DNA of 64,000 bases. Origin: an uncultured virus (IMG/VR IMGVR_UViG_3300027902_000007). Its lineage: Duplodnaviria; Heunggongvirae; Uroviricota; Caudoviricetes. Made by a program: the position numbers and the translations under genes. How positions within the stretch are numbered: position 1 is the stretch's first letter; each line of letters opens with the position of its first letter. The stretch lies in IMG/VR virus record IMGVR_UViG_3300027902_000007, one strand, 5' to 3'. Of the stretch, positions 25,002 to 60,183 are shown in pieces. Below the pieces are notes generated by a model, which had not been told where the DNA came from, searched no databases, and was given only the letters and a program-made list of their open reading frames with translations.

Positions 25002-25214
25002 TCAGCCCCGTGACAACGCCTCGATGAAGTCGAACTTGTTGGCACCCACAGGCGATGCGACCGTCCTGAGGTGGTCTATACACCTGACACACAGTAACCT
25101 CTCGTGGGAGTCCGACAGGCGGACCGGGTGTAGCTCACGCCTCTGGCCGCACCTGTCACAGGCGCCCAGGCAGGTGCCCCACCAGCGGTTTAGGTCTGAT
25201 ATCGTCTCAGACAT
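25002..25214 (-). CDS. Zn-ribbon protein with KFDF tail
   Basis: GACDRC...LCVRC; ANKFDFI near the C-terminus. Confidence 0.55.
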   Translation of the reverse strand: MSETISDLNRWWGTCLGACDRCGQRRELHPVRLSDSHERLLCVRCIDHLRTVASPVGANKFDFIEALSRG

Positions 25215-25467
25215 TGTCACCCCCGGTCATGAAGTCGAACTTACTGATGGCGACTACTTTTAACTGCGTGGGGTCGTGTGACACGTGGTCACGTGGGTCG
25301 ACGGCGATGACGTGGTCCCTATTTATACCGGCGACCTCCCTAATCATCTGGGTGAATTCTTGGAGTGTCAGTCGTCCGTGCATGTCGCGGCCCAACTCAC
25401 GGTTTGGTTCACAACGCAGGTGGTGTATCGCGGATGTTAGGCCTGTGTCGGTGGTCTCGTCGGGCAT
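25207..25467 (-). CDS. hypothetical protein with KFDF tail
   Basis: ISKFDFM near the C-terminus; GGAGG RBS before MPDE. Confidence 0.5.
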   Translation of the reverse strand: MPDETTDTGLTSAIHHLRCEPNRELGRDMHGRLTLQEFTQMIREVAGINRDHVIAVDPRDHVSHDPTQLKVVAISKFDFMTGGDNV

Positions 25468-25677
25468 CGTCCCTCCCCTACGGGTTCGAACCACTCGTCC
25501 GTGGGCTGGAAGTTACTTATGTCAAATATGTCGGCCCAACCTGACATTACCCCTCCGACCCCAACCTCCCCTGTCCCCGTTAGCATGGACACCCGTGTGG
25601 GTTCCACGCAGACCGGCGTCCCAATTGCCCACGTCCTATGGTCGGTGAACGGCCTCTTTAGGGTGTGCGTCACCTTT

Positions 25678-25995
25678 TTATTCATCTGACCCTCTAACCA
25701 TGAAGTCGAACTTATTGACCTCTGGCGGTGGTTCCTTTGGGGCCTCGTGCATCTTCAACTGTTCGAGTTCCATTTTGGTTAGCCTCTCCCCTAACTCTAG
25801 CTTCAGCCTCTCCTCCTGTGTCCTGGTCAATTGCATCCTCTCGTCGTAACTAAGGGACTGCGTCTCCAATCGTGCTTGTCGGTCGTGCAGTTGGGTCACC
25901 TGGGCCTGGACCGTCAGGAGTTGTTGGCGCAGGTCCTGACCGATCTGTGCCATGGCTGACGCCAGACCCTCGATGCCACCGGCGAAACTGGGCAT
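25678..25995 (-). CDS. coiled-coil protein with KFDF tail (start MPSFAG)
   Basis: heptad-like Q/L/E-rich region; VNKFDFM near the C-terminus. Confidence 0.55.
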   Translation of the reverse strand: MPSFAGGIEGLASAMAQIGQDLRQQLLTVQAQVTQLHDRQARLETQSLSYDERMQLTRTQEERLKLELGERLTKMELEQLKMHEAPKEPPPEVNKFDFMVRGSDE

Positions 25996-26180
25996 CAGTT
26001 CTCTCCCACTATGAATTCGAACTTGTTGACCCCTGTGGGCGCGGGAGGGTTGGTTAACCAGGATGATTCTTGGAGACACACCCCACACAGGTCTTTGTGA
26101 CCACTGTGGTCGTAATGTCTTGTCAGCCACGTTTCTGCCTGACACACGTCACAGGTGCCTTGGAATGTTCTTTCGTCCAT
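25995..26180 (-). CDS. Zn-ribbon protein with KFEF tail
   Basis: GTCDVC...TW...LCGVC; VNKFEFI. Confidence 0.55.
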   Translation of the reverse strand: MDERTFQGTCDVCQAETWLTRHYDHSGHKDLCGVCLQESSWLTNPPAPTGVNKFEFIVGEN

Positions 26181-26637
26181 TGTGTGATAGTCATGTGGGT
26201 CGTCGTAGATTCCAGGCCGACGTTGACTTGCCGTGGGACGTGTTGTCTGCCTATGGTCGGATGTTTGTTTTGGGGCCGTCGGTGGTTATTCGGTGGGTCC
26301 TTGGGCGGCTGGGATTGTGTTGAATTGGGAAGGTATTGGGGGGACTGGTTTGTGACTCCGGTGGGTTTTAGGGGATCAGGAGACCTGGCGGTGTGGGCGG
26401 GGCGGCCGACCGGACTCTTAAGTCTGTGTGGGATCCCGTTCAGGGGGTTCAACGTGGTGGACGTTAAGGGGTGGGACTGACAGTGACCCCGGCGGTCATC
26501 TATGTGGGCTTGCGTGGGGGGCGGCCGAGTCTATCGAGGACGGTCGGGGAGGAGAGCCTATAAAGAGTGGGCGTAGGGTGGCTTCGTCGGATCGTCGGGG
26601 AACGGGACACCGCGCGCCGGGCAGCACACACAGTCAT

Positions 26638-26673
26638 CATGATACAATAAAGAAGCATGATACAATAAAGAAA
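26638..26673. repeat. 18-bp-period tandem duplication CATGATACAATAAAGAA
   Basis: two adjacent copies. Confidence 0.7.
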
Positions 26674-27836
26674 CTAATGAAGGGTCACCACAAAAGAATC
26701 TCTCATATTCCTGAGACGGTATGAGGTCGCCAGGTCGCAAATGGAGAATGGTATGGGTTTGGCCAGATTAAATATGGTGCCGTTTTGACTACAGATTAAG
26801 TTTGTCCTGATGGGTGTGGAGCCGCCGTTGTACTTGAATAGGCACCCACACGTTTGCTGGGTCTGGGGGCAGGCGTCAGAGGATTTTGATATCCTCCTGT
26901 ATTCCTCGTAGCTGCCGGAGCCTGTGTAACCACAGACAGAGCACTCACGAAAAATAGAATCTGTTTCGTTTGGGGCACCGCACATTACACAATTTTCAGT
27001 ACTCATGCGCACCTTCCGTACCACGATCTTCCCCTCCTGACGAAGAAGTAATCGCTCATGATAAAATCGAGGCGTTTAACATCCGCAAGCTTCTTCTTCG
27101 TTCTCCAACCGTTAATGATCCCGCAGATCCTCCCCCTCACCGCGTGTGGCACGTGTACCGGCCTGCTCACCTCTATGTCGACCCGGGTCTCCTGGGTCAG
27201 TGGGTGCCGGAAGAGCATCTCGAGCCCGTCGAAGCACAGGTGGAGCCCGTCATCGTCAAATAGGGGTTCACGTAGTAGGAGTAGGTCGCTCATTGTTTTT
27301 TGTTGAGATTTTAATCATGGACCGAACCCACGATTCGTTTAACTTGCCCGTTACTGCACGACATAATATCTGTAACTGTTCAAAGTCTCCACGGTTACAC
27401 AGGAAGCACACATTTTTGACAGGGGTTTTCATGTGCAGGCAGTGAGTTTCAGCAGGAAATCCCGGTACTTTTTCGAGTAATTCGCCAACCCAAAAATCAC
27501 GACCCTCCGCCATGCACGCCCTTGCTATTAGTTTGCATCTATGTTCAGTGTTCATATTTCTCATCATCCTTTTTTCAACAGCACCATGTATTCCTGGCCG
27601 TTCACGTTGATGGCAACAATCTTACCTTCCGCCAGGGCCCGCAGGTGTTCCTCGGTTAGAATGGTGGGCGTGTTGCGTTGGTGTGGGCAGTGGAATTCAG
27701 CGTAATCGTCCGCGACCTGCATGGAACCAAAGACCACGACCTCATCGCTTGCGAATATTCCCCTCTCTGCCTCCTCAAGAGTATTAAACACGTTCATATT
27801 ATCTCCTCTCTCCGCGTTCAACAGATCATCCTATTT

Positions 27837-28109
27837 TCATATGTGTTTAAAAAACGTGAAAGATCCAGTTGACGTAGTTGTGATCATTTTTGTAGTCGTA
27901 GAGTGGGATTTGTCGGACGGTGCCACGCTTCTTCCCACCATGAAATCAAATTTGCTGATTGCGGTTGCGGGCGCAGAAGAGTTTGCTTCTGGGACGCATG
28001 CTTTGCACAGGTTGTGATCGTCACACTGCGTTACCCAAGTTTTGCCGTGGCATTTGTCGCAAGTGCCTGGGAAGTACAAGACAGGTATTATCAGAATCGG
28101 ATCGTTCAT
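27837..28109 (-). CDS. Zn-ribbon protein with KFDF motif
   Basis: GTCDKC...TW...LCKAC; ISKFDFM. Confidence 0.55.
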   Translation of the reverse strand: MNDPILIIPVLYFPGTCDKCHGKTWVTQCDDHNLCKACVPEANSSAPATAISKFDFMVGRSVAPSDKSHSTTTKMITTTSTGSFTFFKHI

Positions 28110-29771
28110 AAAGCCCCATTGGGTATTGATGGTCCGCCAGGATCCTTAGGATCTACTCGGTACCAATCTGTTATACTCAAACCCTCATCAATAGGTTTCT
28201 TAGCTAAATGGCAAAACTCCCAAGTACTCAAAGCAACCTTACGACGCCACAATGGTGTATCTGTTTTATTCATTCGTCTATTTCATGTTAATTCTTTAGC
28301 GGCTCTTGCGCAAATGAACTTAGACCCCTTAAAATTGTCGTCGCAGTAATAGGCTATGTAAATGGGATATTTCTTTCCGTTTATTTTTATATGATGAACG
28401 ACTTTAAGTTGTCCAGTGCAGGCGGCCATCGTACGGCCTGTTTTCTTATAAGACGTTACTGTGGTCGCGATGGCAGAAACCTCATGCAAGATCATCTGGG
28501 TGCACACAACATCCTCCTTTTAACGCTCGCATGCCGGAGAGAAGATAGTTAGTTGTCTCCTGCCCTCATTTGGTTTATTGGCGTTGAAGATTGCGACTCG
28601 TCTTACTTTAGCCCCGCCACAATGTTTACAACCAATTACCCTATCCAGGTCATAGTTGTCCCATGTGCTCGTGCGCCGTCTGAAGTTTATTAGTTTTCGT
28701 ACCGCCTCTTTGTTGCTTTTAGCATGAAATTCGTATGTCTGCTCGGGAGTGTCGTGCCTGCTATAGGTGATTATGTATTTCATCTTTTCAGCCCCTGTCT
28801 CAGGAGTATAAAACTACAGCAGGCCATTAGGACGCTAATTAGGGCACAGACGATCTCTTCTCCCGTTGTCATGACGTGGAAGAATCCGGCAGCCGAAAAC
28901 CCAGCCACGAAAGCTGAGAGACCCGCCAGGGCACATAGAGTGATCTTAATCTTATTCATACGTCATACTCTTTCATTTGATAAACAGACTAATTAAAGAC
29001 GAAACCATAACAACCGCTGCTAGAACGGTGACAAGCCAACAACAGAAGTCCAGATCTTTATGTCCGCGGCTGCACGACATACACATTGTGAGATGTTCTT
29101 TTGTTATCGGTAATCCTGTACCCTCACAGTACGCTTGAATTTTTGGTCTATCCATGCTGTCTTCCTACCTCTTTCTCAGGTCACAGTACATCGGCAGTAT
29201 GACTATCGCACAGAAGATTATGAAAAAACCAAAGAAGGCTAACGTCTCTAAAAATCGTTTCATTGCCGGTTTCATTTTCCCTTAGATTGCCGTTTTTCCT
29301 ATCCACGCTTATTTTATAGTTAGGACCGAGAAAGCCATTTAAGTCAGTCTTGTCGGCAATTTTATTTACAGCCATTATTCTAGTTTGCTTTAGAATGTCG
29401 TCAATTTTCATGCTTACGTCCTATAGATTATCACGTTCCCGAAGTCCCCACTTAAGCAATTCCGATAAGAGTCTTTGCTTGGTCGTTGGGTCTTGACGCT
29501 GGTATTCAGGGTGGATCGTGACACAATTATAACCGTTATGTCGAATGTATGTGGCCTCTCCGAGTGTGATAACGTCGACGTTTGGGCCGTTCGTTAATAA
29601 TTCGACGTCTTCATCTATTTTTAGCTCGTAGTAAGAGCCGTGGCCTAAGCAGATGGTGACCGCGTCTCTGTTGACAGTGTCCATCTCGTTGAGCTCTTTA
29701 ATTTCGTCCTTGTGGTGTTGGATGTTGGGGAAGTCTTTGAGAAATTTAATCTGCATGTCATTATAGTCGCG

Positions 29772-30146
29772 TTAGTTTACTAAGCTTTCTAAAAAATCAA
29801 ATTTTGTTATTTCTATAGGCACGGACGTGTCTCTACTGCCAGGTGTCGACATGAACTTGTGGCACCAGTACTCGAGGTCCTTACACTCTCCGCTGGTGAA
29901 GAGCGGGCATTCATAGTAATCACCGCCGAGACCCGCCTTGGCAAACTGTGGGTTTATTTTGTAGATGACTATATTGCGACATGTGAAACAGCTCCTCTGC
30001 CAGCACGGAGCCTGCTTTACGTCTTCTAATTTTAAGCAATCATTTTTGCAATTACAATCTCTACATTCAGGTTGTTGTGGATGCTTTACTTTTTGTAAAG
30101 ATAGTCGCTGGCTGATTTCGTAGAGTGTCATATCGTCATCATTCAT
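29772..30146 (-). CDS. Cys-rich protein with KFDF tail
   Basis: multiple Cys motifs; ITKFDFL near the C-terminus. Confidence 0.55.
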   Translation of the reverse strand: MNDDDMTLYEISQRLSLQKVKHPQQPECRDCNCKNDCLKLEDVKQAPCWQRSCFTCRNIVIYKINPQFAKAGLGGDYYECPLFTSGECKDLEYWCHKFMSTPGSRDTSVPIEITKFDFLESLVN

Positions 30147-30327
30147 AATGTGCAAGGACTTAAGCACGCTTTCACCATTAAAACTGTTTTACGTGACCTT
30201 TTTTCGAACTTATCTAATTTCCGTAAGAATATTGGCACGTCATTATTTCTGAAGGGAATTGTCTTTGTTACAATTTTGCCTTTTGCGATTTTTGTAAGAC
30301 CCCTTAGCAAATCCCGTTGTACTTTTG

Positions 30328-42604: not shown

Positions 42605-43585
42605 TTAATCCCACATTTTGAACTTCTTGCCATCAACCTCGTGTAGGAGAGTTAGTGGGATCCGCCAAGTGCCAACCACGACCTTTGACCCTTTGGCCTC
42701 TGTCACTTTTCCGCTCGCAGTCCCAGTCTCAGGATCGTATCCCGGAGGGGCCTGCTTTTCGTACCTTGCACGACCAAAACTGCCACGTATAGTCTTATAA
42801 CCAGGCGTGAACTTAGTCTTCCAAGAAACTTTCTTACCTATGAGATCTTTGGCTGTGACCGGCGATTTTGTTTTCTCTGATTTGGGCGGCTCTTGGGATT
42901 TAGTTATCAACTCTACCGGCACCCTCCAGCCTGTGTCGGTCGTGACCATCACTCCGCCACGTCTACCGCTTTTGACTTTCAACACACGACCGGACATCGT
43001 CTGACCCGGGTACTTGTGTGACTTCCAAGTGATCATCTTACCCACTAAATGTGAGTGCTTTTCTTTTTCTTTCTTTTGCTGTTCTTTTGACTCAGACCTT
43101 TCTTTTTGGCGCTCTCCTAAAGAGTCAAATTTTTCTTGCAATTCTGAAGGTAATTTTTTATCGCCGTGCGCGATGTAATGTTTAAGAAGTTCCTGCTGAA
43201 TTTCTAATGGTTCATTTCTCTCACCGGCAGCTTCAACGGCGGTGCCGTCAAGATCACCTTGTGCACGCCGTTCACGGTTCCAAGCAGCTTCTAAACGTCT
43301 ATCTATTTTTGCCTGCAATTCTTGTATCCGCTCTTTTGCCCAAGTCTTAGGATTGGGTTTCTGCGACACTTTCTTGGCAAAGTCTGCGTACGTTCCTCGT
43401 GCAGAATCGTCGGCGTCGTCAGGCGCTTTCTGCACCGACTTGTCACCGCTATCTGGCCGCGCGGTTATTTTCCTTTTTGATTTCGGATGCCTGCTAAGGT
43501 AGCCCTTTTGGTCCTCGTAGGACATGTCTTTCCATTTCCTAGCTTCTTTTACAAATTCCGCTTGAATACTAGCTAAATATTTCAT
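42605..43585 (-). CDS. protein with shared IQxEF leader and W..Q..YL..HP motif; repeated LxGK.[IV].WK modules at the C-terminus
   Basis: GGAG RBS then MKYLASIQAEFVKEARKWKDMSYEDQKGYLSRHPKSKR. Confidence 0.65.
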   Translation of the reverse strand: MKYLASIQAEFVKEARKWKDMSYEDQKGYLSRHPKSKRKITARPDSGDKSVQKAPDDADDSARGTYADFAKKVSQKPNPKTWAKERIQELQAKIDRRLEAAWNRERRAQGDLDGTAVEAAGERNEPLEIQQELLKHYIAHGDKKLPSELQEKFDSLGERQKERSESKEQQKKEKEKHSHLVGKMITWKSHKYPGQTMSGRVLKVKSGRRGGVMVTTDTGWRVPVELITKSQEPPKSEKTKSPVTAKDLIGKKVSWKTKFTPGYKTIRGSFGRARYEKQAPPGYDPETGTASGKVTEAKGSKVVVGTWRIPLTLLHEVDGKKFKMWD

Positions 43586-43595
43586 GCTCTCTCCT

Positions 43596-43847
43596 TTATT
43601 TGCGCGTTTCACGTCTCTGTTTCTTTTTATAAGCATCGTAATCTTCTTTAAGTTCTCGTCTATATTCCGCTTCGTCTTCTCTACGTTTTTGACCAGGTGA
43701 CCTTTCATCAAACCATTTTTCACCAGTGCGCCGTCTCTTACTATGCGGATGTCTTTTTAAATATGCTCTCTGTTGTACTGGTGATAAGTCAGTCCATTTT
43801 CTTGCAACTTTTAAAAATTCTGCCTGAATACTGGCTAAATATTCCAT
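43596..43847 (-). CDS. protein with shared IQxEF leader and W..Q..YL..HP motif
   Basis: MEYLASIQAEFLKVARKWTDLSPVQQRAYLKRHPHSKR. Confidence 0.65.
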   Translation of the reverse strand: MEYLASIQAEFLKVARKWTDLSPVQQRAYLKRHPHSKRRRTGEKWFDERSPGQKRREDEAEYRRELKEDYDAYKKKQRRETRK

Positions 43848-43855
43848 TTAACGCC

Positions 43856-44026
43856 TCACTTATTCGTTATACGATCGGGATAGTTTCCTCGTTCGGCTGC
43901 CACGTTACCGGGCCTGTCCTCACCAACAATCTGCGTCACTTTTTTCTCAGCTTCTTTAGAGGCGATGTCCTCCCATTTGCGGGCTTCTTTTAAGAACTCA
44001 GTCTGTATTTCTGCAATGTGATTCAT
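43856..44026 (-). CDS. 56-aa protein with shared IQxEF leader (absent from the ORF track)
   Basis: translated by hand: MNHIAEIQTEFLKEARKWEDIASKEAEKKVTQ...RITNK. Confidence 0.6.
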   Translation of the reverse strand: MNHIAEIQTEFLKEARKWEDIASKEAEKKVTQIVGEDRPGNVAAERGNYPDRITNK

Positions 44027-44340: not shown

Positions 44341-44925
44341 TTATGTTTTTTGGTGGGCCATGCTATATTTTTTATTTCTTTGCTGTATCGGATCCCATAT
44401 TTTTTTCCAATAATTATACTCACCGACGCCGATGTAACCGCCAAATGTATTCATTGGGCCTTGTTCGACGATCAACATAAATTTTTTTAAATGATGCTGT
44501 TGAATGACCCTCGCTGCTTTATCTCGAATAAATCTTAAAGTGTGATATGCATGTAGCCATAGGCGGGGACCGTGACCGTTCGTCCTTTCTCTATCATACT
44601 TGGGAGGATACTTACGACTTCGCTTATCGAGCAAATAAGTCCTATAATAATTCCTATCAGATATATGCAGATCTCCAAATGCAGTGCAATATATTGTAAT
44701 ATTATCCTTAGAGATTTTTTGTGAGAGCCAGTCTTTGACGCTCTCTGCATCCCAGTCTACAGTTATACGGTAACCGTTGTTTTTATAGAAGGACTTAGGT
44801 ATGTCAAGTAATGTCTTTTTAGTTTGAAATTTTAAATAAACAGTCAGACTTGATTCGTAATAGTCGTGGTTAACAATGACGTAGCCCAATTTTCTGAACC
44901 GGTCAAGAGTTTTTTGGATGTTCAT
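44341..44925 (-). CDS. hypothetical protein
   Basis: 194-aa co-oriented ORF. Confidence 0.55.
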   Translation of the reverse strand: MNIQKTLDRFRKLGYVIVNHDYYESSLTVYLKFQTKKTLLDIPKSFYKNNGYRITVDWDAESVKDWLSQKISKDNITIYCTAFGDLHISDRNYYRTYLLDKRSRKYPPKYDRERTNGHGPRLWLHAYHTLRFIRDKAARVIQQHHLKKFMLIVEQGPMNTFGGYIGVGEYNYWKKIWDPIQQRNKKYSMAHQKT

Positions 44926-45175
44926 TTTTTAAGTCCGCAATGAAATCAAACTTATTTACGGCCTGATTAAGTACTGGTGGCTGCGAGTATACTGTATGAC
45001 ATATTTGATCATTCTTTGGTGCGTCGCTATCGCCGTTATCCTCATCCTCTGCTAACGTTGAAGGCGATGGAGGCGGTGGGATACATCTACGACGATTAAA
45101 TAATAAGATCGCCACAGACAACACGGCAAGAAAAAATATCATGAAACTGATCGCCGTTACAATGACAGCATTCAT
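44903..45175 (-). CDS. single-TM protein with KFDF tail
   Basis: N-terminal TM helix, poly-Pro linker, VNKFDFI. Confidence 0.55.
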   Translation of the reverse strand: MNAVIVTAISFMIFFLAVLSVAILLFNRRRCIPPPPSPSTLAEDEDNGDSDAPKNDQICHTVYSQPPVLNQAVNKFDFIADLKNEHPKNS

Positions 45176-45374: not shown

Positions 45375-45665
45375 TCACTCATACGCCGGCTCCATCTGCG
45401 AGATAAAATCAAATTTATTGACGTTAACAGGCCTGCGCCGTCTGACGATGACTCCTCGTAGATATGTTGAGAATAGTTTACCAACCTCGCTGTCCTTGAC
45501 TAAAAACCATTTGTCATCTTCAAGAGAGAAGCACCACTCGTCACCTTCTTTTAAAGTGCCGTTAAGCGTGTCGTTCTCTATCTTAAAGTATTCATAATTG
45601 TCGTCAGTCTGGTAACCCATCATGAATCTCCTTACCGTAAAATAATCGTCAGCCGAATAACTCAC
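45375..45665 (-). CDS. hypothetical protein with KFDF tail
   Basis: VNKFDFI near the C-terminus. Confidence 0.55.
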   Translation of the reverse strand: MSYSADDYFTVRRFMMGYQTDDNYEYFKIENDTLNGTLKEGDEWCFSLEDDKWFLVKDSEVGKLFSTYLRGVIVRRRRPVNVNKFDFISQMEPAYE

Positions 45666-45680
45666 TGCGGAGTGTTCCTT

Positions 45681-46007
45681 TTAATCTGCAAGAATAAAGT
45701 CAAACTTGTTTTTCCTTAAGTCATGTAGCGTTATAAGCTCGTCTGCTACTTTATGGTCGCATAAATAGCACTTGTTATAATAAGGCACGCCGTTCTCGTC
45801 AACTTCGTGATGAAACATTTTTTCTTCACAGTCCATGTAAGAGTTAAACAACGCACCACAATTATTACAATAACTTTGACGCACTGTTGTGCTCATATTA
45901 TAGATAGTTGACATTACCATGTCGTCGTAATTTTCAATAATCTTATTATTTTTAGCTCTTTTTTCCACCGTCAAATTACCTGTTGAAAAAACTCTTATAT
46001 TTTTCAT
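45681..46007 (-). CDS. Cys-containing protein with KFDF tail
   Basis: CNNC...CYLC; ends in KNKFDFILAD. Confidence 0.55.
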   Translation of the reverse strand: MKNIRVFSTGNLTVEKRAKNNKIIENYDDMVMSTIYNMSTTVRQSYCNNCGALFNSYMDCEEKMFHHEVDENGVPYYNKCYLCDHKVADELITLHDLRKNKFDFILAD

Positions 46008-47055
46008 CGTGGTGCTCTTCACATAACGTGCGATCCATGAATGTAATCGTTATTTTACCACAACCCTTAACAGAACAAATGCTTTTTCTTTCTTCCGGCG
46101 CATAAGGATTACACCCGTAATCCCAATTATTTTTTCGATTGTGATTCCAAAATTTTCCCAATTCAGGCTTTTCCTTAATGATATCTGGCTCTCTCATTTC
46201 AGTACTCATTAATTTAAATACATCCTCGGCGGGAGTCAATTCAGGAAATACGTTTATAGAACTGCAATGGGGACAGGTGTCGTTAACCAACGAACTATAC
46301 AACATGTTCTGCGTGCGACAGTCAAAACAAAAATATTTATCTTTGCGGCGTTTGGGTTGGTAATTCACATTCAGGTCAATACGGGCCGCTTTAAGACAGC
46401 TAGGACATTCAGTCGAGTGACCCACGAGCCGATTACTAAAATCGTGGGCAACTGCGGCACACTCGGTCTCTGTTAGTTTATGATCCGTCGTTACCGTAAT
46501 CACAAACTGTCTCTCGAATTTTGGCATCATTTCCTCCTTATTTTATTTCCCTCTTTGACCCACTTACGGAGCCTCGAGCGATATTCCTTCTGCAGTTCTT
46601 CTAGTAGTCCCCTAAATCGGCTGCGTGACAGTCCCTTTACGAGACCAAATAAAGTCTGCAAAGCATTATCGTCAAGATATTCTAGATTGACGAGCTCAAT
46701 CAAGGCAGTTGCCAATGCCCTTGACTCCCCTCCGCAGGCAAACTTAAGCAGGGAGTCTGCCATCTGCATTCCTGCCTTTATAGTCCTACGGTTTGAATTA
46801 CTGAGATTTAAAGTCCTTACTTTTTTCATAACTTCGGAAGTCTCGGTAATTCTGCTTCCGTCCACAAACCTTCAGCACCTTCTTCCTTATACATCATATG
46901 TCCCCTTGTTATATACATAGGTATTTTATTTGCGCTAATATGAACTTCAACAAAGCATAGCTCTGGTTTACCGAGAAACGTTTTTCCGAATCTCCACCCA
47001 TAGAACCAATACGAACCTTTTTCGATCGGCCACTCTTTTGTCCATTTCATATTGT

Positions 47056-47271
47056 CTAATCTATTTTCATAATAAAATCAAATTTATTAATCATTTTTGG
47101 CAATTGTAGGTACACGATAAATTTTGGTTTGACAACGCGCTTAAGTTTTGGTTTGACAATTTGTTTAACAACGTCTTTTACAAAAATATAGAAATTAGCG
47201 TAAGCTGGGTAAAGTATTGCAATAACAAAGCATACGAGGAATATCGGTGTTATCTGCGTTATAAACGACAT
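47056..47271 (-). CDS. single-TM protein with KFDF tail
   Basis: N-terminal TM helix; ends in INKFDFIMKID. Confidence 0.55.
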   Translation of the reverse strand: MSFITQITPIFLVCFVIAILYPAYANFYIFVKDVVKQIVKPKLKRVVKPKFIVYLQLPKMINKFDFIMKID

Positions 47272-48138: not shown

Positions 48139-48429
48139 TTACTCGTTTGCTACAATAAAATCAAACTTACTAACTTCTACAGCTCGTCTGGGCACACCTG
48201 CAGGAAAACACTCTCTAACAAACCTGCACTTGCTTGTTTCGTCTATCGGTATCACCTCCGACGGCCACTGCTCCGGATAACAAGAACGTATGTGTGCTCT
48301 ATCATCATCAGTCCCACTTACATAGGCATCGTATTTACACGTGCGACTATTTATTCGTTGCTGGCATAATAATGGTATTGGCAAGCATTGGTATTTCAAA
48401 GCCGTAAAGTCGTCATACATATTTTGCAC
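48139..48429 (-). CDS. Cys-containing protein with KFDF tail
   Basis: ends in VSKFDFIVANE. Confidence 0.55.
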   Translation of the reverse strand: MQNMYDDFTALKYQCLPIPLLCQQRINSRTCKYDAYVSGTDDDRAHIRSCYPEQWPSEVIPIDETSKCRFVRECFPAGVPRRAVEVSKFDFIVANE

Positions 48430-50090: not shown

Positions 50091-50480
50091 TTAAATTTTT
50101 TCATGTCTCCTCCTCGTTTGGACAATAGTGAATCTAGTAAAGCACACGTCATGACTGTCACCAAAATATTTGACGTTTCCTTTTTTAACCCGAATCTTAA
50201 ATATTCTATAATCGCAGTCGGGATTAAAGTAGGTACGTACGTTAAACCGCGCATCTTCCCTTGATACGTAAGCGTGGAATGCACCGGCAGTTATTTCATC
50301 ACCGATATCGATAAAAAACTTTCGTTCTGCCACGTTTTCTTTATTCGTATAAATTAACGTACGCTGATGCGGAGAGTAATATTTATTCTTATATTCAAGT
50401 GCGACTTTCCAAAAATAAAAATATTTCTGGCATTTTTTCTTCTTTTCCCGTGTTAGGTCACGGTCAATAGTGAGGCACAT
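50091..50480 (-). CDS. MCL...FHAY family phage protein, paralog 1
   Basis: MCLTID...YFYFWKV...YYSP...FHAY...KYFG..DVCFT. Confidence 0.6.
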   Translation of the reverse strand: MCLTIDRDLTREKKKKCQKYFYFWKVALEYKNKYYSPHQRTLIYTNKENVAERKFFIDIGDEITAGAFHAYVSREDARFNVRTYFNPDCDYRIFKIRVKKGNVKYFGDSHDVCFTRFTIVQTRRRHEKI

Positions 50481-51168
50481 ATCAGTCGTCTCTCTCATTT
50501 AGTATAAGTTGGAACTTAGTTGCCGAATTAACTGCTTTCGACAACGTCAGATGTGTGCAACTGTGATACTCTAGTTCTTTTTTTGTCCCTGTCTTGCCGC
50601 ACCGTGTGCAACAATAGTTGTCTCTTTTCCACTTAAACGTCTCAACACAGTGTTGCAGCTCATGTGTGACAATTCGGCCAATAATTAAACAGACGACCGT
50701 TAGAAAAACAACAATAAGAAAAATGCACAGAATAATCATTGTGTCCGTTTCATTTTCTTTTTCTTATTAATTTAATTGCTTCCTGCATTATCTCTTTTGA
50801 AATTATATTTTCTAGCCGTTTTAATCTTCTCCAGTGTGACACTTTCCAAATAAGGCATCCAAAGCCACCGTAACCACCACAGTACCAATCTTTGGCCCTT
50901 GAGTCCGTCCATGCAAACATTGTCGTCGATAAATCATTATTTGCGACTTCCAAATAGCAATAGGCAGGCGGTTTCTTTTTCCTTACGTCGTGCCATTCTG
51001 GAAGTTCAGCCTTACTTCTGCGTGCTGCGTTTGGGCAAGATAACGTCATTAGGTTTACCTTTTGCGTTCTGTTTAGCAAGGAATTTCATCGCAATTACTG
51101 TCTCGCATTTTTCAGGATCTTTCATGCAATCAGCCCGTTTACACAGATCAACATATTGGCATTTCATA

Positions 51169-51432
51169 TTACTTTAAAATTGTGTCAAGGATTACCACTC
51201 CGTCTATACGAACTTCCATTCTATGAGTTCCAAGTGACTGATGTTTGCTGGCTTCATGAAAAATGAGCGGAGCACTTACTGACCCTGTGTGTGTTAACGG
51301 AAATATCGGCTTGCTTGAACTAAATATGCTTGTGTTACGCACGGCACCGATTAAAAGTGTTGCCGCTATTGCCACGACAACTATTATTAAAAGAAGCTCA
51401 ATTAATGTAAAGCCTTTTGCCTGTTTTAGCAT
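51169..51432 (-). CDS. prepilin-type N-terminal cleavage/methylation motif protein
   Basis: KGFTLIELLLIIVVVAI class III signal (G/F...E5). Confidence 0.7.
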   Translation of the reverse strand: MLKQAKGFTLIELLLIIVVVAIAATLLIGAVRNTSIFSSSKPIFPLTHTGSVSAPLIFHEASKHQSLGTHRMEVRIDGVVILDTILK

Positions 51433-53922: not shown

Positions 53923-54081
53923 TCATGCATTTAAAATGAAATCAAATTTGCTTGTCGCGCTTTCGGTAGCACAGAGAAATTCCACTTCCTCAGTGCGCGC
54001 TCCGTCAGTAACTATTGGAAAATCCGGATCATCAAGCATGTCATATAACTCTTGCGTATTCATAAATTGTGACACATTCAT
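53923..54081 (-). CDS. 52-aa acidic protein with KFDF tail (absent from the ORF track)
   Basis: translated by hand: MNVSQFMNTQELYDMLDDPDF...ESATSKFDFILNA; ATG overlaps the HAD gene's TGA. Confidence 0.55.
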   Translation of the reverse strand: MNVSQFMNTQELYDMLDDPDFPIVTDGARTEEVEFLCATESATSKFDFILNA

Positions 54082-54620
54082 ATTTTAATAGGCTTACGTT
54101 TATAGCCGTTGCGAACTATTTCGCCATTACTTGCAATAATGTCGTTATTTAAAATTTTTACAGCTTTTTCAGCCTCTTTCCGTGTCAGCCCGCTTTCATT
54201 TTTGCATTGTACAAGCCTGCTCACTAAACTGCCCATGTCAGCATCATCGTCCAATATGACAAAAGACTCGATCGGTTCTATTTTTTTATCACGGTCGGTC
54301 AAGTTCCAGTCTTTGCCATTATTGTATCGGTCAATCCAGCACCTGATCTCATTTCCGCGTATGTCTCCTGTGTGTGGTGTCGATCCCCTCACTTCTCCCT
54401 TGAAACCTAAGAGTGAGAGAAGCCTCCAAATATAACTGGACGAACAGTTTTTACGCCACACTGAAGATATCACGAGGACAGCACCCGTTTTTTCAACGAT
54501 GTAATTTAACCACCCAATGTGAATAGGGTCAGGGTTGTCGTTAAAAATACGTTTCCCAGCACGCCTCATAGAGCCCTTTGAATTTAGTACCCCGTCAATG
54601 TCGAGGAATATGATTTTCAT
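54078..54620 (-). CDS. HAD-domain protein (Swiss Army Knife RNA-repair-like HAD family)
   Basis: IFLDIDGVLN, ISSVWR, RG.EI and FVILDDD motifs. Confidence 0.8.
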   Translation of the reverse strand: MKIIFLDIDGVLNSKGSMRRAGKRIFNDNPDPIHIGWLNYIVEKTGAVLVISSVWRKNCSSSYIWRLLSLLGFKGEVRGSTPHTGDIRGNEIRCWIDRYNNGKDWNLTDRDKKIEPIESFVILDDDADMGSLVSRLVQCKNESGLTRKEAEKAVKILNNDIIASNGEIVRNGYKRKPIKI

Positions 54621-55492
54621 GTTAGATTATTCACCTTTTTTCTCAAGGAAGTGAGCCACTATCCCGCAAGTCAATGATTTGTTGCCTGTGTCGCTTTCAG
54701 TAGTGAACGTATCATCTTCCAGATCAAGTTTAATGATGATAGTATAGATTTCCTTGTCGTTTGGTTTACTTTCATCTACGCCAAGGCCGAATTGCCCTCG
54801 AATCCAATCTGATAATATTTCAGTTATTTTTTCACCCTTAATGTCGCTTGACATTTCAAACGAATCGTTCTTTACATTATATTTTAGTATTATTGACAGT
54901 GGACAAAAATCATAGTATCTTTCAATACTCATTTGTTTCTCCTTTACCTATAATTTATTCCGTAACCATTGGCCACTGACGGTGACATGTTGCGCAAACA
55001 TTTATACCTATTTGTTTACCTTCTTTATACTCATAAGATTGATAAATGTGAGGTGCCTGATCATTTGCCTCACAACCGCAGATCCTATTAACAGTCGACG
55101 CATTTTGGAATCTGCAACATGCCTCACATAATTCACGAGAACCCCACCCACATCCGGTGATGCATAAATCTTTATGAAGCCATTCTGTGGGCACTCGTTT
55201 ATCAGTTACAAATGCTAAATAATGTCTTGCAGATTTGGGATGGAATATTTTCTCACCTTCAGTGCCGATATCTATTGGCTCAATTTTAGACAGAACGTCA
55301 GAAAAGACAGTGCACTCTAATTCTAAAATTTCATTTCTTCTGACAAACTCGTCAAGATTTTCTGCCCACATATTCAGGCATCGTTCTCCTGATGCAAAAT
55401 TGAAATAATTGCCAAAAGACAGCGGAAAGTTTTTATTTATGATTCCGACACATGAGCTGCATCCGATTTGAGCACGAATCATCTCAATAGTT

Positions 55493-56062
55493 TTATTTAC
55501 CATAAATCTCTCCCGCTGCTACATTTTCAGACTTGACTTGATCGTTAGAAGGATCATCGAGTGGTTCAAGTTCGCGGTAAACTTCAGCTCTTATAGCTTC
55601 TTTTCGTTTTTCTGTCGATTCGTAGTCCTTATTTTTGTTGAGCTTTGGCAGAAAGGGCTGCCCATTAAATTCGACATGTGCTAATTGAGTGCAACCGTGG
55701 CAATCGTAACCATAACAGAATAAAAATCTATGTTTATATATTCTACATTTGCCTTTTTTAGACAACATTCTGCAACTATAAAGATGTTTGTAACCATGCT
55801 TTGTTGCTTTAAGATGTTTTACAAATGGAGTATCGTTTATATTTTTTAACAACAAAAATTGTTTTATAAATTCAAATCTGGGTACTTCTTTATGAAAGCA
55901 TTTTTTAGGATGAAAAATCCACTCCCAAAGATCAGATTTAGAATAATCTAAACTAAAAACTTTGCAGCACGCACCATTACAAGTAGCGCAACGTTGAGTC
56001 TTCGCTTCACGGTACATTTTCAATACTTCTTTATATGCCTTTGATCTTTTAAACATTTTCAA
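55493..56062 (-). CDS. YkgJ-like CxxCxxCC cysteine-cluster protein
   Basis: CATCNGACC...CRML...CRIY..R...C pattern. Confidence 0.65.
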   Translation of the reverse strand: MKMFKRSKAYKEVLKMYREAKTQRCATCNGACCKVFSLDYSKSDLWEWIFHPKKCFHKEVPRFEFIKQFLLLKNINDTPFVKHLKATKHGYKHLYSCRMLSKKGKCRIYKHRFLFCYGYDCHGCTQLAHVEFNGQPFLPKLNKNKDYESTEKRKEAIRAEVYRELEPLDDPSNDQVKSENVAAGEIYGK

Positions 56063-57113
56063 TTCTATTTTAATAACGCAAACGTATTAATTAATGTCGA
56101 ATCAAGCAGTTGTAATTTTGTCGTCGCCATTCCCGTTTCGTCGGTAATGTATTGTATTTTTTTATCTGCCAAAAGAGCTGTTTTAAGAGCATCCTGGCGC
56201 AATTTGTAACTAAACTCAATTGTCCCACCACAAAGTAACACAGCAATGATGATACCCATAAATAATTTCACGTCTTCCTCCTTTTATATTTTTGTGTTGT
56301 AATCAGGTCTATAAATGTCTTTTATAAAAAGTATTAATATAAAAACGACGGGCCCAAAAATAATTAATAACCACGGCACCGATCTATCATCGTATCGTCG
56401 TCGCCAATAGTTGGTTGCAACCCAGCCAATTAAGCACCAGACTATCACGCACACCCAAATTATTATTTCCATTTTATTTCTTTTTTAATGCGTCGGTCAA
56501 CACTTCGCTTATAGCCTTTACGACCCCTGTGTGATCTGCGGCATTAAACTTTCCATGGTAAGGGCACTTTTTATTCACCCTGATAGTTAACAATGTGTAT
56601 TTGCCCAATGCCTTTACAGTTCGTCCGTATACTTCACACGCGCATCTCACTTTACGCCTCGTGCGGTATTTTAAAGTACGGTAGTCAGATGTGTGCGGAT
56701 ACGATTCACATTTCTTGAGCGCCTGCAATAACGTCTTTGAATCAAAATCACCCTCAATATTATCTAAGGCTGCTATAATGGCATCTTTAACTTCGCCAAC
56801 ACTGTTGACGTACACTCCCATCTGGACACCCCCTATGGTTCTTTTCCTGTCAAAGCGCAATACAAATCTGCAGCAATTTCTTTTATTCGACGCTCACATT
56901 TTCTATTTTGTCTGACAGCTTCTTTTGCTGCTGCTTCTGATTCGGAATGCGGCGGTTGTTGTATTCCGCTTAAATGCTCTAATCCTTCATCCAATAATTT
57001 ATGTAATCTCTGCATCTTCTTTTCAGAAAACTCTCCCGCACCGCCAAACCACATTTCTTTAAATTCACGAGCCATTAATTATTTCCTATGTTTTTGGATA
57101 GCGTTGTCACACC

Positions 57114-57497
57114 TCATTGGCGCATTACAGTAAACTTAGTAAAACATACGTCGTGATCATTACCAAAATATTTTAAGTTTTCTTTTTTAACCCGAATTTT
57201 AAGCACTCTGTTAACGTTTTCATCACTGCCGTATGTTCGTATGTGAAGCCGTGCAGCTTCTCTACATGCATAGGCGTGAAATGCGCCAGAAGTTATCTCG
57301 TCACCGTTCTCTATTTGAAATTGCCCCTTTGCTTTATTTGTTTTATTTACATGAAGCAACGTGCCCTGATTTGGGGAATAATATTTATTATTTCCTTTTA
57401 AAAGAGCGACTTTCCAGAAATAAAAATATTTCTGCTTTCTTACTTTCAGTCTTTCGTTCATTTTCGATGTCAATTCAGTGTTAATTGTAAGACACAT
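57114..57497 (-). CDS. MCL...FHAY family phage protein, paralog 2
   Basis: same motifs as 50091-50480. Confidence 0.6.
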   Translation of the reverse strand: MCLTINTELTSKMNERLKVRKQKYFYFWKVALLKGNNKYYSPNQGTLLHVNKTNKAKGQFQIENGDEITSGAFHAYACREAARLHIRTYGSDENVNRVLKIRVKKENLKYFGNDHDVCFTKFTVMRQ

Positions 57498-57506
57498 ACT
57501 TCTCCC

Positions 57507-57863
57507 TTATTGAGGAACTATCATGAATTTAGTAAAACACACGTCACGGTCGGTGCCGAAATATCTGACGTGCCCTTTTTTAACTTTCACTTTGATCACA
57601 GTTTCACTATCTATGTCATCAATTTTTTCCCGTGCGGCCTGCCTCACAGCGTAAGCATGAAACACTCCACCGTTTATTTCATTACAACTACAAATCCTAA
57701 GTTTTCCTTTTGCTATATTCACTTTGTCTTTATGAATTAATATGCCTCGAAACGGAGAATAATATTTGCCCTCCACTTTATTTACAACTTTCCAAAAGTA
57801 AAAATACTGTCTGTTTTTCTTTTTCATTTTTCGTGTTATCTCACGATCAATTACGAGACACAT
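57507..57863 (-). CDS. MCL...FHAY family phage protein, paralog 3
   Basis: same motifs as 50091-50480. Confidence 0.6.
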   Translation of the reverse strand: MCLVIDREITRKMKKKNRQYFYFWKVVNKVEGKYYSPFRGILIHKDKVNIAKGKLRICSCNEINGGVFHAYAVRQAAREKIDDIDSETVIKVKVKKGHVRYFGTDRDVCFTKFMIVPQ

Positions 57864-57876
57864 ATTACCTCTTTCG

Positions 57877-58356
57877 TTAAGTTTTTTGTTGAAAGCTTTC
57901 AGGCGCAATCACGCTTAAATCTACGTAAAGACCTGCGCCTATCTGAATAGACCAAGCCGTCCGCCCAAATGGTTTCACCGTGGGCTGTTCGTCAATTATA
58001 CCATTAACAGTCAATCTGACAGCCTCTACTAGATCCTTAGAAGAAAATGCCCCCTCCACCCACGGTATTGCCACTAGATCGAGATCGCGCCCCAAACTGC
58101 CATGAACTGTTATTGCGTATCCTCTCTCGTGCGCGACCTTTTCTATGACTGGCAGCAATTTCTGATACTTTTTTAACACTAATTTCTTATTAGTGAATCC
58201 CTTACCTTTAATCCAGCCCCGTGAGTCCAGAAATGTCATTACGTTAATTGGACAATCTTTTATATCTGCAGTCTTTTTTAAATGATTTAACCAATCGTAA
58301 TAAGCTTCTTCAAGCTTTTTCTTTTGGTGATCAGTTAATTCTTTATGCTTAATCAT
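57877..58356 (-). CDS. possible minimal nucleotidyltransferase-fold protein
   Basis: VHGSLGRDLDLVAIPW (GS...DxD) motif. Confidence 0.45.
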   Translation of the reverse strand: MIKHKELTDHQKKKLEEAYYDWLNHLKKTADIKDCPINVMTFLDSRGWIKGKGFTNKKLVLKKYQKLLPVIEKVAHERGYAITVHGSLGRDLDLVAIPWVEGAFSSKDLVEAVRLTVNGIIDEQPTVKPFGRTAWSIQIGAGLYVDLSVIAPESFQQKT

Positions 58357-60183
58357 TTCTGACGTCTTTGGAAAATCTTTGCTTTATTGTATAAAAATTT
58401 ATGACCATCTCTTAACATTTGTTCAGAAATAAGATGTCTACAGTCACGAAAATCTTCAGCAGACATATCGCTATAAATTTTAATTGATATTCCTGTACTA
58501 TCAATCTCTGCTTCAAAAGCATTATTCATTACACGAAAAAACACTGGGATATTCATTTTTAACCACTCTGTTATTTGTTTAAGAGTCATAACTGTCGGTG
58601 TGACAATTTCATATGTTGTAATGGCTTTTGTATAGCCTAAATCGTCCTCTATACTCGCCATACCGGTTTCTAATAGTTTTTTACCGTCAATTCTTATATC
58701 AACCTTATTCAAGTTTTTAATCCATGGCCAATAATCCTCATCGCGTATTTCGCGTTCTGTAGTTATGAGTATTTTCATGATTGTCTCGGACGAAATTCAA
58801 TGACGTTCAGCGGCATCTTAGGTTCTATTGCTTTTTTCACTACGTTAGCAAACTCTTCGCGCGAAGTGACCAAATGATTGTCCAGAGCAACAGCATACAT
58901 ATGATCAAGGAGCTTAAACGATTCGGCATCACGCTTTCTCTGATAAAAATCTAAAAGCATCTTAATCCTGTTTTGACAAAAACTTAAGAATCTCCTAAAC
59001 ATGCACCCTCCTTTTAGTGATAAAATCAAAGCCTAACTTATAAGGAGTCTTTTCTAGTCCTGTCTCGGCCGTCTTCTGACACTTTCGTACTTTCCGCGGT
59101 TTACAGTCATACATTTTGTCCATGAATTTCAACTTGCCCTCAACGATTGCGTCAATTCTAGCTTGTTGTGCAGACGACATTGACGGTGCCGATTCTGCTT
59201 TTTTCATGAAATTCCTACTAACTGTGCTGCTTTCATTGCTCCACGAGCAGTCGGCGTAATAATTGGCTCTACATGCTCATTTAAAAGCATCGCGCTGACG
59301 CAATTACAAACCCATTCAATCTCTGCCTCCTGACATCTTACGTACCAATAATTATCAATTCGATCGTTAAATGCCTTTTGAGTTGCTATGGTGGCTTCTG
59401 CCAGAAGTTCTTTTAACTGCTCCGGCGTTTTATTCCTACATCTCTCAAATCCCAATACCGACCCCTCAAGTTTTTCTTTTTGCTTAGGTTCGGTATAATC
59501 TGCCTTGACAGCCTCAATCCCGTCGTCGATTAATTTTTCAAGAAATTGTAGGTAGTTCATGTGTCTCCCTTCAGTAGGCGTTTGACTTTAGTGACAGAAA
59601 GATCTGATATATCCGCTTTATTTAAAACCCTATCTTCTCTCCAAGATGCTTTTAACCTATATTTACTCAGGTCTGTCGACTCAAACAGTACTGTACAAAA
59701 AATTGTGTTGCGCATGCCCCGTTGGTCTCTGAAGACAACACGGATCACGTGGGACCTATCTGACTTTTTAATGATGTGCCAAGTTGTTTTAATCACGATC
59801 TCTACTTGCTAATGTGAGCGCAATCTCAGTTTCCTTGCGTTCTTTTCTGAGCTGTACAATCTCTCTTTTTAACTTGATCAAGTTTCTATTCATCCAAATT
59901 GCATTGAACGTAAAAAGCGCGACGCTTATGATTAATAAAAGGACTACACCCGGATAGCGCTGACAAATGAATATCGCAATTATCATCGCCATAATTACCA
60001 CAACATTGAAATATAAAAATCCATAATCAATATTGGCACGCATATTATGAGATTTCTTTTGACACCGATCTCTATATTTCTGTAACTGAGGACATGCCCA
60101 TTCTGAAATATTGCCGTCTACAGTTCGTGTTGAACCAGAGCATTTCCGATCGTGCAAGCAGTCAAAGTCTTCAAATAAGCATT

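What the first reader, a model, noticed from the sequence alone, without database searches (positions are those of the whole stretch)
25002..59207. A shared C-terminal peptide tag [NSTG]KF[DE]F[IML] on 15 mostly unrelated small proteins
Seen in sequence: the motif lies near the C-terminus of ORFs 25002 (ANKFDFI), 25207 (ISKFDFM), 25678 (VNKFDFM), 25995 (VNKFEFI), 27837 (ISKFDFM, longer tail), 29772 (ITKFDFL), 30328 (INKFDFI), 32867 (ISKFDFI), 39641 (NGKFDFI), 44903 (VNKFDFI), 45375 (VNKFDFI), 45681 (KNKFDFI), 47056 (INKFDFI), 48139 (VSKFDFI) and 53923 (TSKFDFI). ORFs 32867 and 53923 are missing from the ORF track. Variants occur at 27003 (KRLDFIM), 50482 (TKFQLIL), 58995 (LGFDFIT) and 41043 (GRFVLI). 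The carrier proteins differ: Zn-ribbons, a coiled coil, TM proteins and an acidic peptide. The motif often follows a Pro/Ser/Thr-containing linker. Codons vary synonymously (AAG TTC GAC TTC vs AAA TTT GAT TTC), so conservation is at the protein level rather than a DNA repeat. It is absent from ORF ends left of 25 kb. Inference: a short linear docking or addressing motif that recruits many accessory proteins to one partner (a phage scaffold or compartment, an export/packaging machine, or a protease), similar in principle to the SSB-Ct or clamp-binding motifs. I do not recognise it as a described system.
Basis: partly seen in the sequence, partly recalled or inferred. Interest (0 to 1): 0.88.

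Follow-up and report, generated by a model that had tools for sequence, protein, structure and literature searches.

The report
Shared KFDFI tail on phage proteins
Fifteen mostly unrelated small proteins of an uncultured large phage end in the same short peptide, which most likely plugs them all into one common partner that is still unidentified.

Summary
The peptide K-F-[D/E]-F-[I/M/L] occurs 16 times in the six-frame translation. Fifteen copies lie on the minus strand, each 3-11 residues (once 33) before the stop of a coding ORF; residue shuffles give 0.05. All codon variation is synonymous apart from one D-to-E, third positions follow local GC, and the flanking DNA is no more alike than random, so conservation is at protein level. 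Four carriers are zinc-ribbon paralogues and the other eleven bodies are unrelated. Three carriers are membrane proteins whose tail should face the cytoplasm, which argues against export or capsid packaging. The full motif is P-x(3-7)-[VI]-[NS]-K-F-D-F-[IM] followed by a short, mostly acidic end. It sits in a stretch that AlphaFold2 leaves unfolded. The closest known sequences are the T4 sliding-clamp-binding tails, with core L-D-F-L against F-D-F-I here. My best reading is a docking tail for one cytoplasmic hub, most likely a sliding clamp, but no reader was found. The genome is an orphan with no relatives carrying the tag, so conservation could not be tested. This scan has noted comparable tags, with other peptides, in other large phages.

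The parts
25002..25220 (-). Carrier 1, zinc-ribbon paralogue, tail ANKFDFIEALSRG
   Evidence: own reading frame scores best
25207..25494 (-). Carrier 2, 95 aa, body without relatives, tail ISKFDFMTGGDNV
25678..25995 (-). Carrier 3, 105 aa from the ATG that overlaps the stop of the gene before it; heptad-like Q/L/E-rich body; tail VNKFDFMVRGSDE
25995..26180 (-). Carrier 4, 61-aa zinc-ribbon paralogue, the only KFEF form, tail VNKFEFIVGEN
   Evidence: AF2 folds residues 1-43 and leaves linker and tag under pLDDT 50
27837..28109 (-). Carrier 5, zinc-ribbon paralogue; the tag is followed by a 33-aa Ser/Thr-rich extension
29772..30167 (-). Carrier 6, 131 (or 124) aa, 10 Cys, tail ITKFDFLESLVN
30328..30690 (-). 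Carrier 7, zinc-ribbon paralogue with about 50 extra residues between ribbon and tag, tail INKFDFIMEAT
32867..33019 (-). Carrier 8, 50 aa, 4 Cys, tail ISKFDFILQREDA
39641..39988 (-). Carrier 9, membrane protein (basic N-terminus, hydrophobic 17-35 and, read by eye, a second segment at about 44-63), tail NGKFDFISEI
44903..45175 (-). Carrier 10, single-pass membrane protein (8-26, then RRR), Pro-rich linker, tail VNKFDFIADLKNEHPKNS
45375..45665 (-). Carrier 11, 96 aa, tail VNKFDFISQMEPAYE
   Evidence: (low-confidence model)
45681..46022 (-). Carrier 12, 113 aa, two CxxC pairs, tail KNKFDFILAD
47056..47271 (-). Carrier 13, 71-aa membrane protein (2-20, Lys-rich after it), tail INKFDFIMKID
48139..48429 (-). 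Carrier 14, 96 aa, 6 Cys, tail VSKFDFIVANE
53923..54081 (-). Carrier 15, 52-aa acidic protein, tail TSKFDFILNA
27003..27293 (-). Variant: KRLDFIM followed by 17 residues
41043..41627 (-). Variant (weak): ends GRFVLIES
50482..50739 (-). Variant: membrane segment plus Cys-rich part, ends TKFQLILNERDD
58995..59207 (-). Variant: ends LGFDFITKRRVHV (Gly in place of Lys, basic end)

Best explanation
The tail P-x(3-7)-[VI]-[NS]-K-F-D-F-[IM]-x(3-11) is a protein-level short linear docking peptide on a flexible C-terminal end. It lets about one in eight proteins of a long one-strand array of small phage genes bind the same cytoplasmic partner. That array reads like an early or accessory gene region. 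I think the partner is most likely a ring-shaped sliding clamp, more probably one encoded by the phage outside this window than the host beta clamp. The bodies are zinc ribbons, a coiled coil and membrane anchors. Such a tail would bring them to clamps loaded on replicating DNA, as T4 does with its polymerase, late sigma factor gp55 and co-activator gp33.

Shown: the motif, its position, its protein-level conservation, the unrelated bodies, the unfolded linker in a model, and the cytoplasmic side of the tag by the positive-inside rule.

Inferred: that one partner reads the tail (about 0.8) and that this partner is a clamp (about 0.3).
For: The enrichment is extreme: 15 C-terminal copies against 0.05 expected. 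Variation in the core is synonymous apart from one D-to-E, and third positions follow local GC (rho 0.58, p 0.023). DNA flanks are 27-30% identical, as for random 30-mers at 26%, while the 14-nt core is 85% identical.

All 15 ORFs score best in their own frame with a codon model trained on 21 long untagged genes (14; the 15th after I corrected its start). Eleven bodies are unrelated, and 4 are paralogues that kept the tag at 30-47% identity. In one paralogue the tag stayed terminal behind about 50 extra residues.

The AF2 model of carrier 25995-26180 folds residues 1-43 and leaves 44-61 mostly under pLDDT 50. The residues after the core are net negative in 10 of 15 tails, neutral in 4 and positive in 1.

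The T4 clamp-binding tails, read from AF158101, end ...ASLDFLFG (gp43)...SPSLDFLYEAND (gp55) and ...NTLDFLL (gp33). They share the core hydrophobic-D-F-hydrophobic, the closeness to the C-terminus, and in gp55 the upstream Pro and acidic end. [quoted passage not shown]

Phage Mu's small factors MuC and Mor bind the host clamp through xDLF-type motifs (PMC12867686, passages).
Against: No clamp, polymerase or other replisome gene lies in the window (Pfam and PHROG on 136 proteins). The defining test, the same tail on the polymerase together with a clamp gene, could therefore not be made.

The motif fails the canonical bacterial beta-clamp definition Q-aliphatic-x-[L/M]-[F/L] (PMC11139829, passages) at three positions: Lys, Phe and Phe are invariant in 15 of 15.

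The Lys, and the [VI]-[NS] before it, have no counterpart in the T4 tails. Fifteen small proteins of unknown function, three of them membrane proteins, are not typical clamp clients. The two ligase-like proteins of the window lack the tail. No relatives were found, so co-variation of tail and reader could not be examined.
Confidence: 0.3

Rival explanations
1. Adaptor or degron tail. The peptide docks its carriers onto a protease or unfoldase, phage-encoded or host Clp, Lon or FtsH. This would either time the destruction of early proteins or let their varied bodies deliver bound host proteins for destruction, as an adaptor library.
For: The design is one tail on many unrelated small bodies, with a diversifying zinc-ribbon paralogue group. 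The tail is on the cytoplasmic side in membrane carriers. It sits on a flexible linker. Earlier notes of this scan read similar tags in other giant phages this way; these are leads only.
Against: No protease or AAA+ gene lies in the window. The distance to the free C-terminus varies (3-11, 33 residues), which does not fit degrons read together with the terminal carboxylate; that property is recalled, not tested. I have no sequence likeness to any degron to show.
Confidence: 0.2
2. Docking onto another hub. The reader would be neither clamp nor protease: RNA polymerase, an unknown phage protein, or the tails themselves pairing as short beta strands so that the carriers co-assemble.
For: The general evidence for a docking peptide applies. 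The alternating K-F-D-F pattern suits an edge beta strand (sequence). Zinc ribbons are common in transcription factors (established knowledge).
Against: Nothing specific points to any of these readers.
Confidence: 0.2
3. Enzyme recognition site. The invariant Lys or Asp of the tail is modified by the amidoligase set encoded 10-17 kb to the left (COOH-NH2 ligase, class-II glutamine amidotransferase, gamma-glutamyl(amine) cyclotransferase-like proteins), for example by reversible gamma-glutamylation.
For: The ligase (13648-14877), the amidotransferase (8386-9393) and two GGACT-domain proteins (16612-17331, 17339-17869) are in the window. Lys is invariant in 15 of 15 and the acidic residue in 15 of 15. 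That such phage ligase sets tag proteins is a published prediction which I recall and could not retrieve.
Against: The only link is that both sit in the same window. The two invariant Phe residues and the strict closeness to the C-terminus are more typical of a docking peptide than of a modification site.
Confidence: 0.07
4. Not a partner-binding tag. The motif would be a nascent-peptide or RNA signal acting on translation of the next gene, or a leftover of common descent or a mobile DNA cassette.
For: The motif always lies just upstream of the next gene's start in a tightly packed array.
Against: All variation is synonymous apart from one D-to-E and follows local GC, which argues against an RNA or DNA signal. 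The flanks are unrelated and the bodies are unrelated, which argues against a cassette or simple paralogy. The distance to the stop, and so to the next start, varies from 3 to 33 codons, which argues against a fixed stalling site.
Confidence: 0.05

Closest known systems
C-terminal sliding-clamp-binding epitopes of phage T4 gp43, gp55 and gp33 (ligands of the gp45 clamp)
   Same: Both are short hydrophobic-acidic peptides within a few residues of the C-terminus, behind a divergent flexible linker, shared by otherwise unrelated proteins. The core is hydrophobic-D-F-hydrophobic: LDFL in T4 and FDFI here. The gp55 tail also has an upstream Pro and an acidic end. The T4 properties are from PMC2988020 (passages).
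   Different: Here Lys and Phe precede the Asp where T4 has [ST]-L, and a conserved [VI]-[NS] comes before them. There are 15-19 carriers instead of 3. The carriers are small proteins of unknown function, three with membrane anchors, not the polymerase and late transcription factors. No clamp is known for this phage.
Bacterial beta-clamp-binding motifs (QL[S/D]LF; Q-aliphatic-x-[L/M][F/L]), including phage Mu MuC and Mor
   Same: Both are five-residue motifs with Asp in the middle and three hydrophobic positions, often C-terminal with acidic flanks, read by one hub (PMC9690074; PMC11139829). Small phage transcription factors use such motifs (PMC12867686).
   Different: Gln at position 1 is Lys here, and positions 2 and 4 are Phe instead of aliphatic Leu or Met (15 of 15). 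The canonical definition is therefore not met.
Tethering tails and degrons of Clp-type proteases (SspB tail for ClpX, ssrA tag); recalled, not retrieved
   Same: Both are short peptides on a flexible C-terminal end that connect varied cargo-binding bodies or substrates to one machine.
   Different: I have no sequence likeness to show. No protease gene is in the window. The spacing to the C-terminus is variable.
Shared C-terminal tags noted by this scan in other large phages (e1-5347349, e1-5848364, e1-5912971, e1-3486267)
   Same: The habit is the same: one private short peptide on the ends of many unrelated, often zinc-binding, small proteins of a large uncultured phage.
   Different: The peptides and the genomes differ. 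Those notes are unchecked AI notes and their readers are also unidentified.

Membership tests
T4-type gp45 clamp-binding C-terminal epitope | Short hydrophobic and acidic motif within a few residues of the C-terminus | tested here: met
   The core F-D-F-[IML] lies 3-11 residues from the end in 14 of 15. Tails are net negative in 10 of 15.
T4-type gp45 clamp-binding C-terminal epitope | Divergent, unstructured linker between body and epitope | tested here: met
   Upstream flanks are unrelated. Pro lies 4-8 residues upstream in 12 of 15. In the AF2 model of one carrier, linker and tag are mostly under pLDDT 50. The second model is too poor to count.
T4-type gp45 clamp-binding C-terminal epitope | Same tail on the phage DNA polymerase and late transcription factors | not testable with these tools
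   No polymerase or sigma-like gene is in the window. The rest of the contig could not be fetched.
T4-type gp45 clamp-binding C-terminal epitope | Phage encodes a gp45-like clamp that binds the tail | not testable with these tools
   No clamp family hit among 136 window proteins. No whole genome is held.
Bacterial beta-clamp-binding motif (Q-aliphatic-x-[L/M]-[F/L]) | Gln at position 1 | tested here: not met
   Lys in 15 of 15. The definition is from PMC11139829.
Bacterial beta-clamp-binding motif (Q-aliphatic-x-[L/M]-[F/L]) | Aliphatic residue at position 2 and Leu or Met at position 4 | tested here: not met
   Phe at both positions in 15 of 15.
Bacterial beta-clamp-binding motif (Q-aliphatic-x-[L/M]-[F/L]) | Phe or Leu (Ile tolerated) at the last position; Asp favoured at position 3 | tested here: met
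   The last position is Ile 11, Met 3, Leu 1. Position 3 is Asp 14, Glu 1.
C-terminal sorting signals with a membrane anchor (LPXTG/sortase, PEP-CTERM and the like; features recalled) | Motif followed by a hydrophobic helix and a basic end, on proteins with a signal peptide | tested here: not met
   After the motif come 3-11 mostly acidic residues with no hydrophobic segment. The carriers are zinc ribbons or have N-terminal anchors with the tag on the cytoplasmic side.
Terminal-carboxylate degrons (ssrA type; feature recalled) | Fixed position at the very C-terminus | tested here: not met
   The distance to the end varies: 3, 3, 3, 4, 4, 4, 4, 5, 6, 6, 6, 6, 8, 11 and 33 residues.

The most novel reading that the evidence does not exclude
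The tail is the plug of a phage adaptor library. Diverse small target-binding bodies (diversifying zinc ribbons, membrane anchors, a coiled coil) would all be wired through one private peptide to a single phage-encoded effector machine that is not a clamp, such as a protease, unfoldase or modifying enzyme. This would be a bacterial-virus counterpart of F-box or SOCS-box substrate-receptor families. Each large-phage lineage would use its own peptide code, as other notes of this scan suggest.
Probability: 0.2. Interest if true: 0.85.

Novelty: new variant of a known kind. Interest (0 to 1): 0.62.

Why it matters

The clients would grow from a handful of replication and transcription proteins to a whole repertoire that includes membrane anchors.

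My searches of the held literature found no description of the peptide or of such a tag set in phages.

Tried and rejected
Relatives:
- No near-identical or protein-level match in the phage records for the region or for two large proteins.
- An exact 80-base stretch was found in neither viral contigs nor metagenome contigs. No whole genome is held.
- A profile of the four zinc-ribbon carriers found only the window's own protein among 5.8 billion (1 of 41 candidates).
- A HMMER profile of three carriers against 1.84 billion representatives gave 2 hits, proteins of 1751 and 451 aa that match the ribbon part several times.
- Carrier 29772 found only itself.
- A neighbouring 390-aa protein has one 46% relative on an 8.5-kb contig. 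That contig could not be fetched from the metagenome, genome or viral collections.

Motif scan:
Six of the 117 were C-terminal in an open frame.
- Three of those records were searched whole and held one match each. Two records were not held. The best look-alike was unrelated to the window by tblastx.

Other searches:
- A PDB sequence search with the tail profile gave only chance matches at E 0.8.
- Foldseek with the zinc-ribbon model gave no match at E <= 0.001.
- The ESM Atlas look-up of carrier 29772 gave nothing at 0.9 or above.
- Promoter and terminator scans were at shuffle level. No tRNA genes were found.
- The literature search for the amidoligase prediction did not retrieve the paper I recall.

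Complex prediction: E. coli beta clamp dimer with the tail alignment gave no verdict (score 0.27, mark 0.32, controls not run). I do not count it either way.

Sequencing runs: none was listed and no RNA holder was listed.

Readings rejected:
- DNA repeat or cassette, because flanks are at random identity.
- RNA signal, because variation is synonymous only, apart from one D-to-E.
- Export or packaging signal, from the topology of the membrane carriers.

Full report
**What the window is**

The 64-kb window has no near match in the phage records, and no whole genome is held for it. Pfam and PHROG scans of 136 ORF products gave phage-type accessory functions only:
- a phiEco32-like COOH-NH2 ligase;
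- a class-II glutamine amidotransferase;
- GGACT-like proteins;
- a DnaJ-ligase fusion;
- an ADP-ribosylglycohydrolase;
- an AdoMet decarboxylase;
- a HAD phosphatase of the RNA-repair type.

The HAD protein's best phage matches are KVP40-like T4-type Vibrio phages at 36% identity. The glycohydrolase's best matches are gut and Bacteroidota phages at 44-50%.

From 64 kb down to 25 kb, about 110 small genes lie head to tail on the minus strand, with many overlapping stop and start codons. GC rises from 35% to 54% along this array. The protein collection records the parent contig as 136,551 bases. I read this as an accessory or early gene region of a large uncultured phage.

**The observation**

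K-F-[D/E]-F-[I/M/L] occurs 16 times in the six-frame translation. Fifteen copies are on the minus strand, in frame with ORFs of 50-155 aa. Fourteen of these lie 3-11 residues before the stop and one lies 33 residues before it. The 16th, on the plus strand, lies 4 codons after a stop.

Among 112 minus-strand ORF proteins (12,719 aa), 2000 within-protein shuffles gave a mean of 0.05 matches and never more than 2. That set held 14 of the 15 carriers, because my overlap filter had dropped 25995-26180.

All 15 ORFs score best in their own frame with a codon model trained on 21 long untagged genes. Fourteen did so. The 15th did so after I corrected its start to the ATG that overlaps the upstream stop. 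For comparison, 65 of 68 short untagged ORFs did so.

**Protein level, not DNA**

The four core codons vary only synonymously, except one Asp-to-Glu (AAA 8/AAG 7, TTT 10/TTC 5, GAT 10/GAC 4/GAA 1, TTC 10/TTT 5). The number of G/C-ending codons follows local GC (Spearman 0.58, p 0.023).

Over 105 pairs, the 30 bases upstream and downstream of the motif are 27% and 30% identical. Random 30-mers give 26% and the 14-base core gives 85%. So the motif is not a repeat, cassette or RNA site.

**Anatomy of the tail**

Aligned on the motif, Lys and both Phe are invariant, and the acidic position is Asp in 14 and Glu in 1. The last core position is Ile 11, Met 3, Leu 1.
- Position -1 is Asn, Ser, Thr or Gly.
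- Position -2 is Val or Ile in 11 of 15.
- A Pro lies 4-8 residues upstream in 12 of 15 (my count).

After the core come 3-11 residues that are net negative in 10 tails, neutral in 4 and positive in 1, the long one.

The AlphaFold2 model of carrier 25995-26180, built on a 4-row alignment, folds residues 1-43 (block pLDDT 76-91) and leaves linker and tag mostly under 50. A single-sequence model of carrier 45375 is too poor to add much (mean pLDDT 47.6).

**The carriers**

BLASTP of the 19 bodies without their tails links only 25002, 25995, 27837 and 30328 (E 4e-5 to 3e-9). All other pairs have E of 0.056 or more. The four are zinc-ribbon paralogues at 30-47% identity. One of them has about 50 extra residues between ribbon and tag, yet the tag stayed terminal.

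Six carriers have two CxxC pairs, and two more are Cys-rich.

Three carriers and one variant have N-terminal hydrophobic segments with basic residues placed so that the tagged end should be cytoplasmic. This rests on the hydropathy and my reading of the sequences. I ran no dedicated topology predictor.

Of the 15 carriers, 14 were scanned together with all 4 variants, and none has a Pfam or PHROG hit. Carrier 25995-26180 was not in those scans.

**What it most likely is**

One peptide on many unrelated bodies, on a floppy end, kept by selection on the protein, is the signature of a docking motif read by one partner. The cytoplasmic side of the tag and the zinc ribbons argue against export, periplasmic sorting or capsid loading.

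The closest sequences I could read with the tools are the three T4 clamp-binding tails:
- gp43 ends ...ASLDFLFG;
- gp55 ends ...SPSLDFLYEAND;
- gp33 ends ...NTLDFLL.

Their core L-D-F-L matches F-D-F-I in pattern and in two identities. The gp55 tail also shares the upstream Pro and the acidic end.

The T4 review describes these as short hydrophobic-acidic C-terminal epitopes behind a divergent, probably unstructured linker, interchangeable among proteins (PMC2988020, passages). Phage Mu's MuC and Mor use xDLF-type motifs on the host clamp (PMC12867686, passages).

The canonical bacterial definition Q-aliphatic-x-[L/M]-[F/L] (PMC11139829, passages; PMC9690074, passage) is not met at positions 1, 2 and 4.

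My odds are about 0.8 that one partner reads the tail and about 0.3 that it is a clamp. The membrane carriers could then tether clamp-loaded DNA to the membrane. Phage phi29 is known to anchor replication with a small membrane protein; this point is recalled, not retrieved.

**Rivals**

- A protease or unfoldase adaptor or degron (0.2).
- Another hub, or mutual pairing of the tails (0.2).
- A recognition site for the window's amidoligase set (0.07).
- A translational or nucleic-acid signal, or simple descent (0.05).

Each is set out with its refuting result in the fields above.

**What could not be done**

The genome is an orphan. No tagged relative was found in 5.8 billion clustered proteins, in 1.84 billion representatives, in the viral contigs or in the metagenome contigs. 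The one distant relative of a neighbouring gene could not be fetched.

I consulted no supplementary files.

**Earlier notes of this scan**

Look-ups by words show that this scan has noted shared C-terminal peptides, each different, on unrelated small proteins of other large phages. Those notes often name clamp tails or Clp adaptor tails as the closest known. They are unchecked notes and I used them as leads only. The lead to the T4 tails I checked myself. Nothing had been noted for this genome or for look-alike DNA.

**Verdict**

- Novelty: a new variant of a known kind, namely hub-docking C-terminal tails of the T4 clamp-epitope type. It is unusual in the number and nature of its carriers.
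- Interest: 0.62.

Noticed in passing
window 34237-34917, 35522-36280, 42605-43723, 43596-43847, 43856-44026 (all minus strand): Five proteins of 56-372 aa share an N-terminal module of about 40 residues, [HY]LAxIQxEF[LV]K...W...YL..HP.SKR, in front of different C-terminal parts. This is a second case of one shared module on varied bodies in the same array.
   Followed up: partly
window 7316-9393, 13648-14877, 16612-17869: An amidoligase set is present: a phiEco32-like COOH-NH2 ligase, a class-II glutamine amidotransferase and two GGACT-domain proteins. A third protein, 7316-7858, has a similar FGYGSL start by eye. The substrate is unknown.
   Followed up: partly
window 11400-11537 and 15109-15249 (plus strand): A conserved non-coding element lies upstream of two plus-strand genes. 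It holds blocks such as CATAAGTC, CTTAGAAG and CCACATTTGG, followed by a Shine-Dalgarno site and the likely true ATG. It is probably a shared promoter or leader. The long TTG-started ORFs there over-extend the genes.
   Followed up: partly
window 50091-50498, 57114-57497, 57507-57908 (minus strand): Three paralogues end in YFGxDxDVCFT[KR]F. One of them matches phrog_13450, of unknown function.
   Followed up: no
window 1-64000: GC content falls from about 54% at 24-26 kb to 35% at 60-62 kb along one co-directional gene array. Tagged genes lie in both zones with codons adapted to each.
   Followed up: partly
window 20213-21385 (plus strand): A 390-aa protein has a signal-peptide-like start and repeated GTDSG motifs. 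Its only relative in 5.8 billion proteins is 46% identical, on an 8.5-kb contig. Its last ~30 residues resemble, by eye and from recall, a Bacteroidota type IX secretion sorting domain. Together, this hints at a Bacteroidota host.
   Followed up: partly
window 1958-3145 (minus strand): A 395-aa protein joins a DnaJ domain to an ATP-dependent ligase-like domain (Pfam RNA_ligase below cut-off, phrog_114).
   Followed up: no
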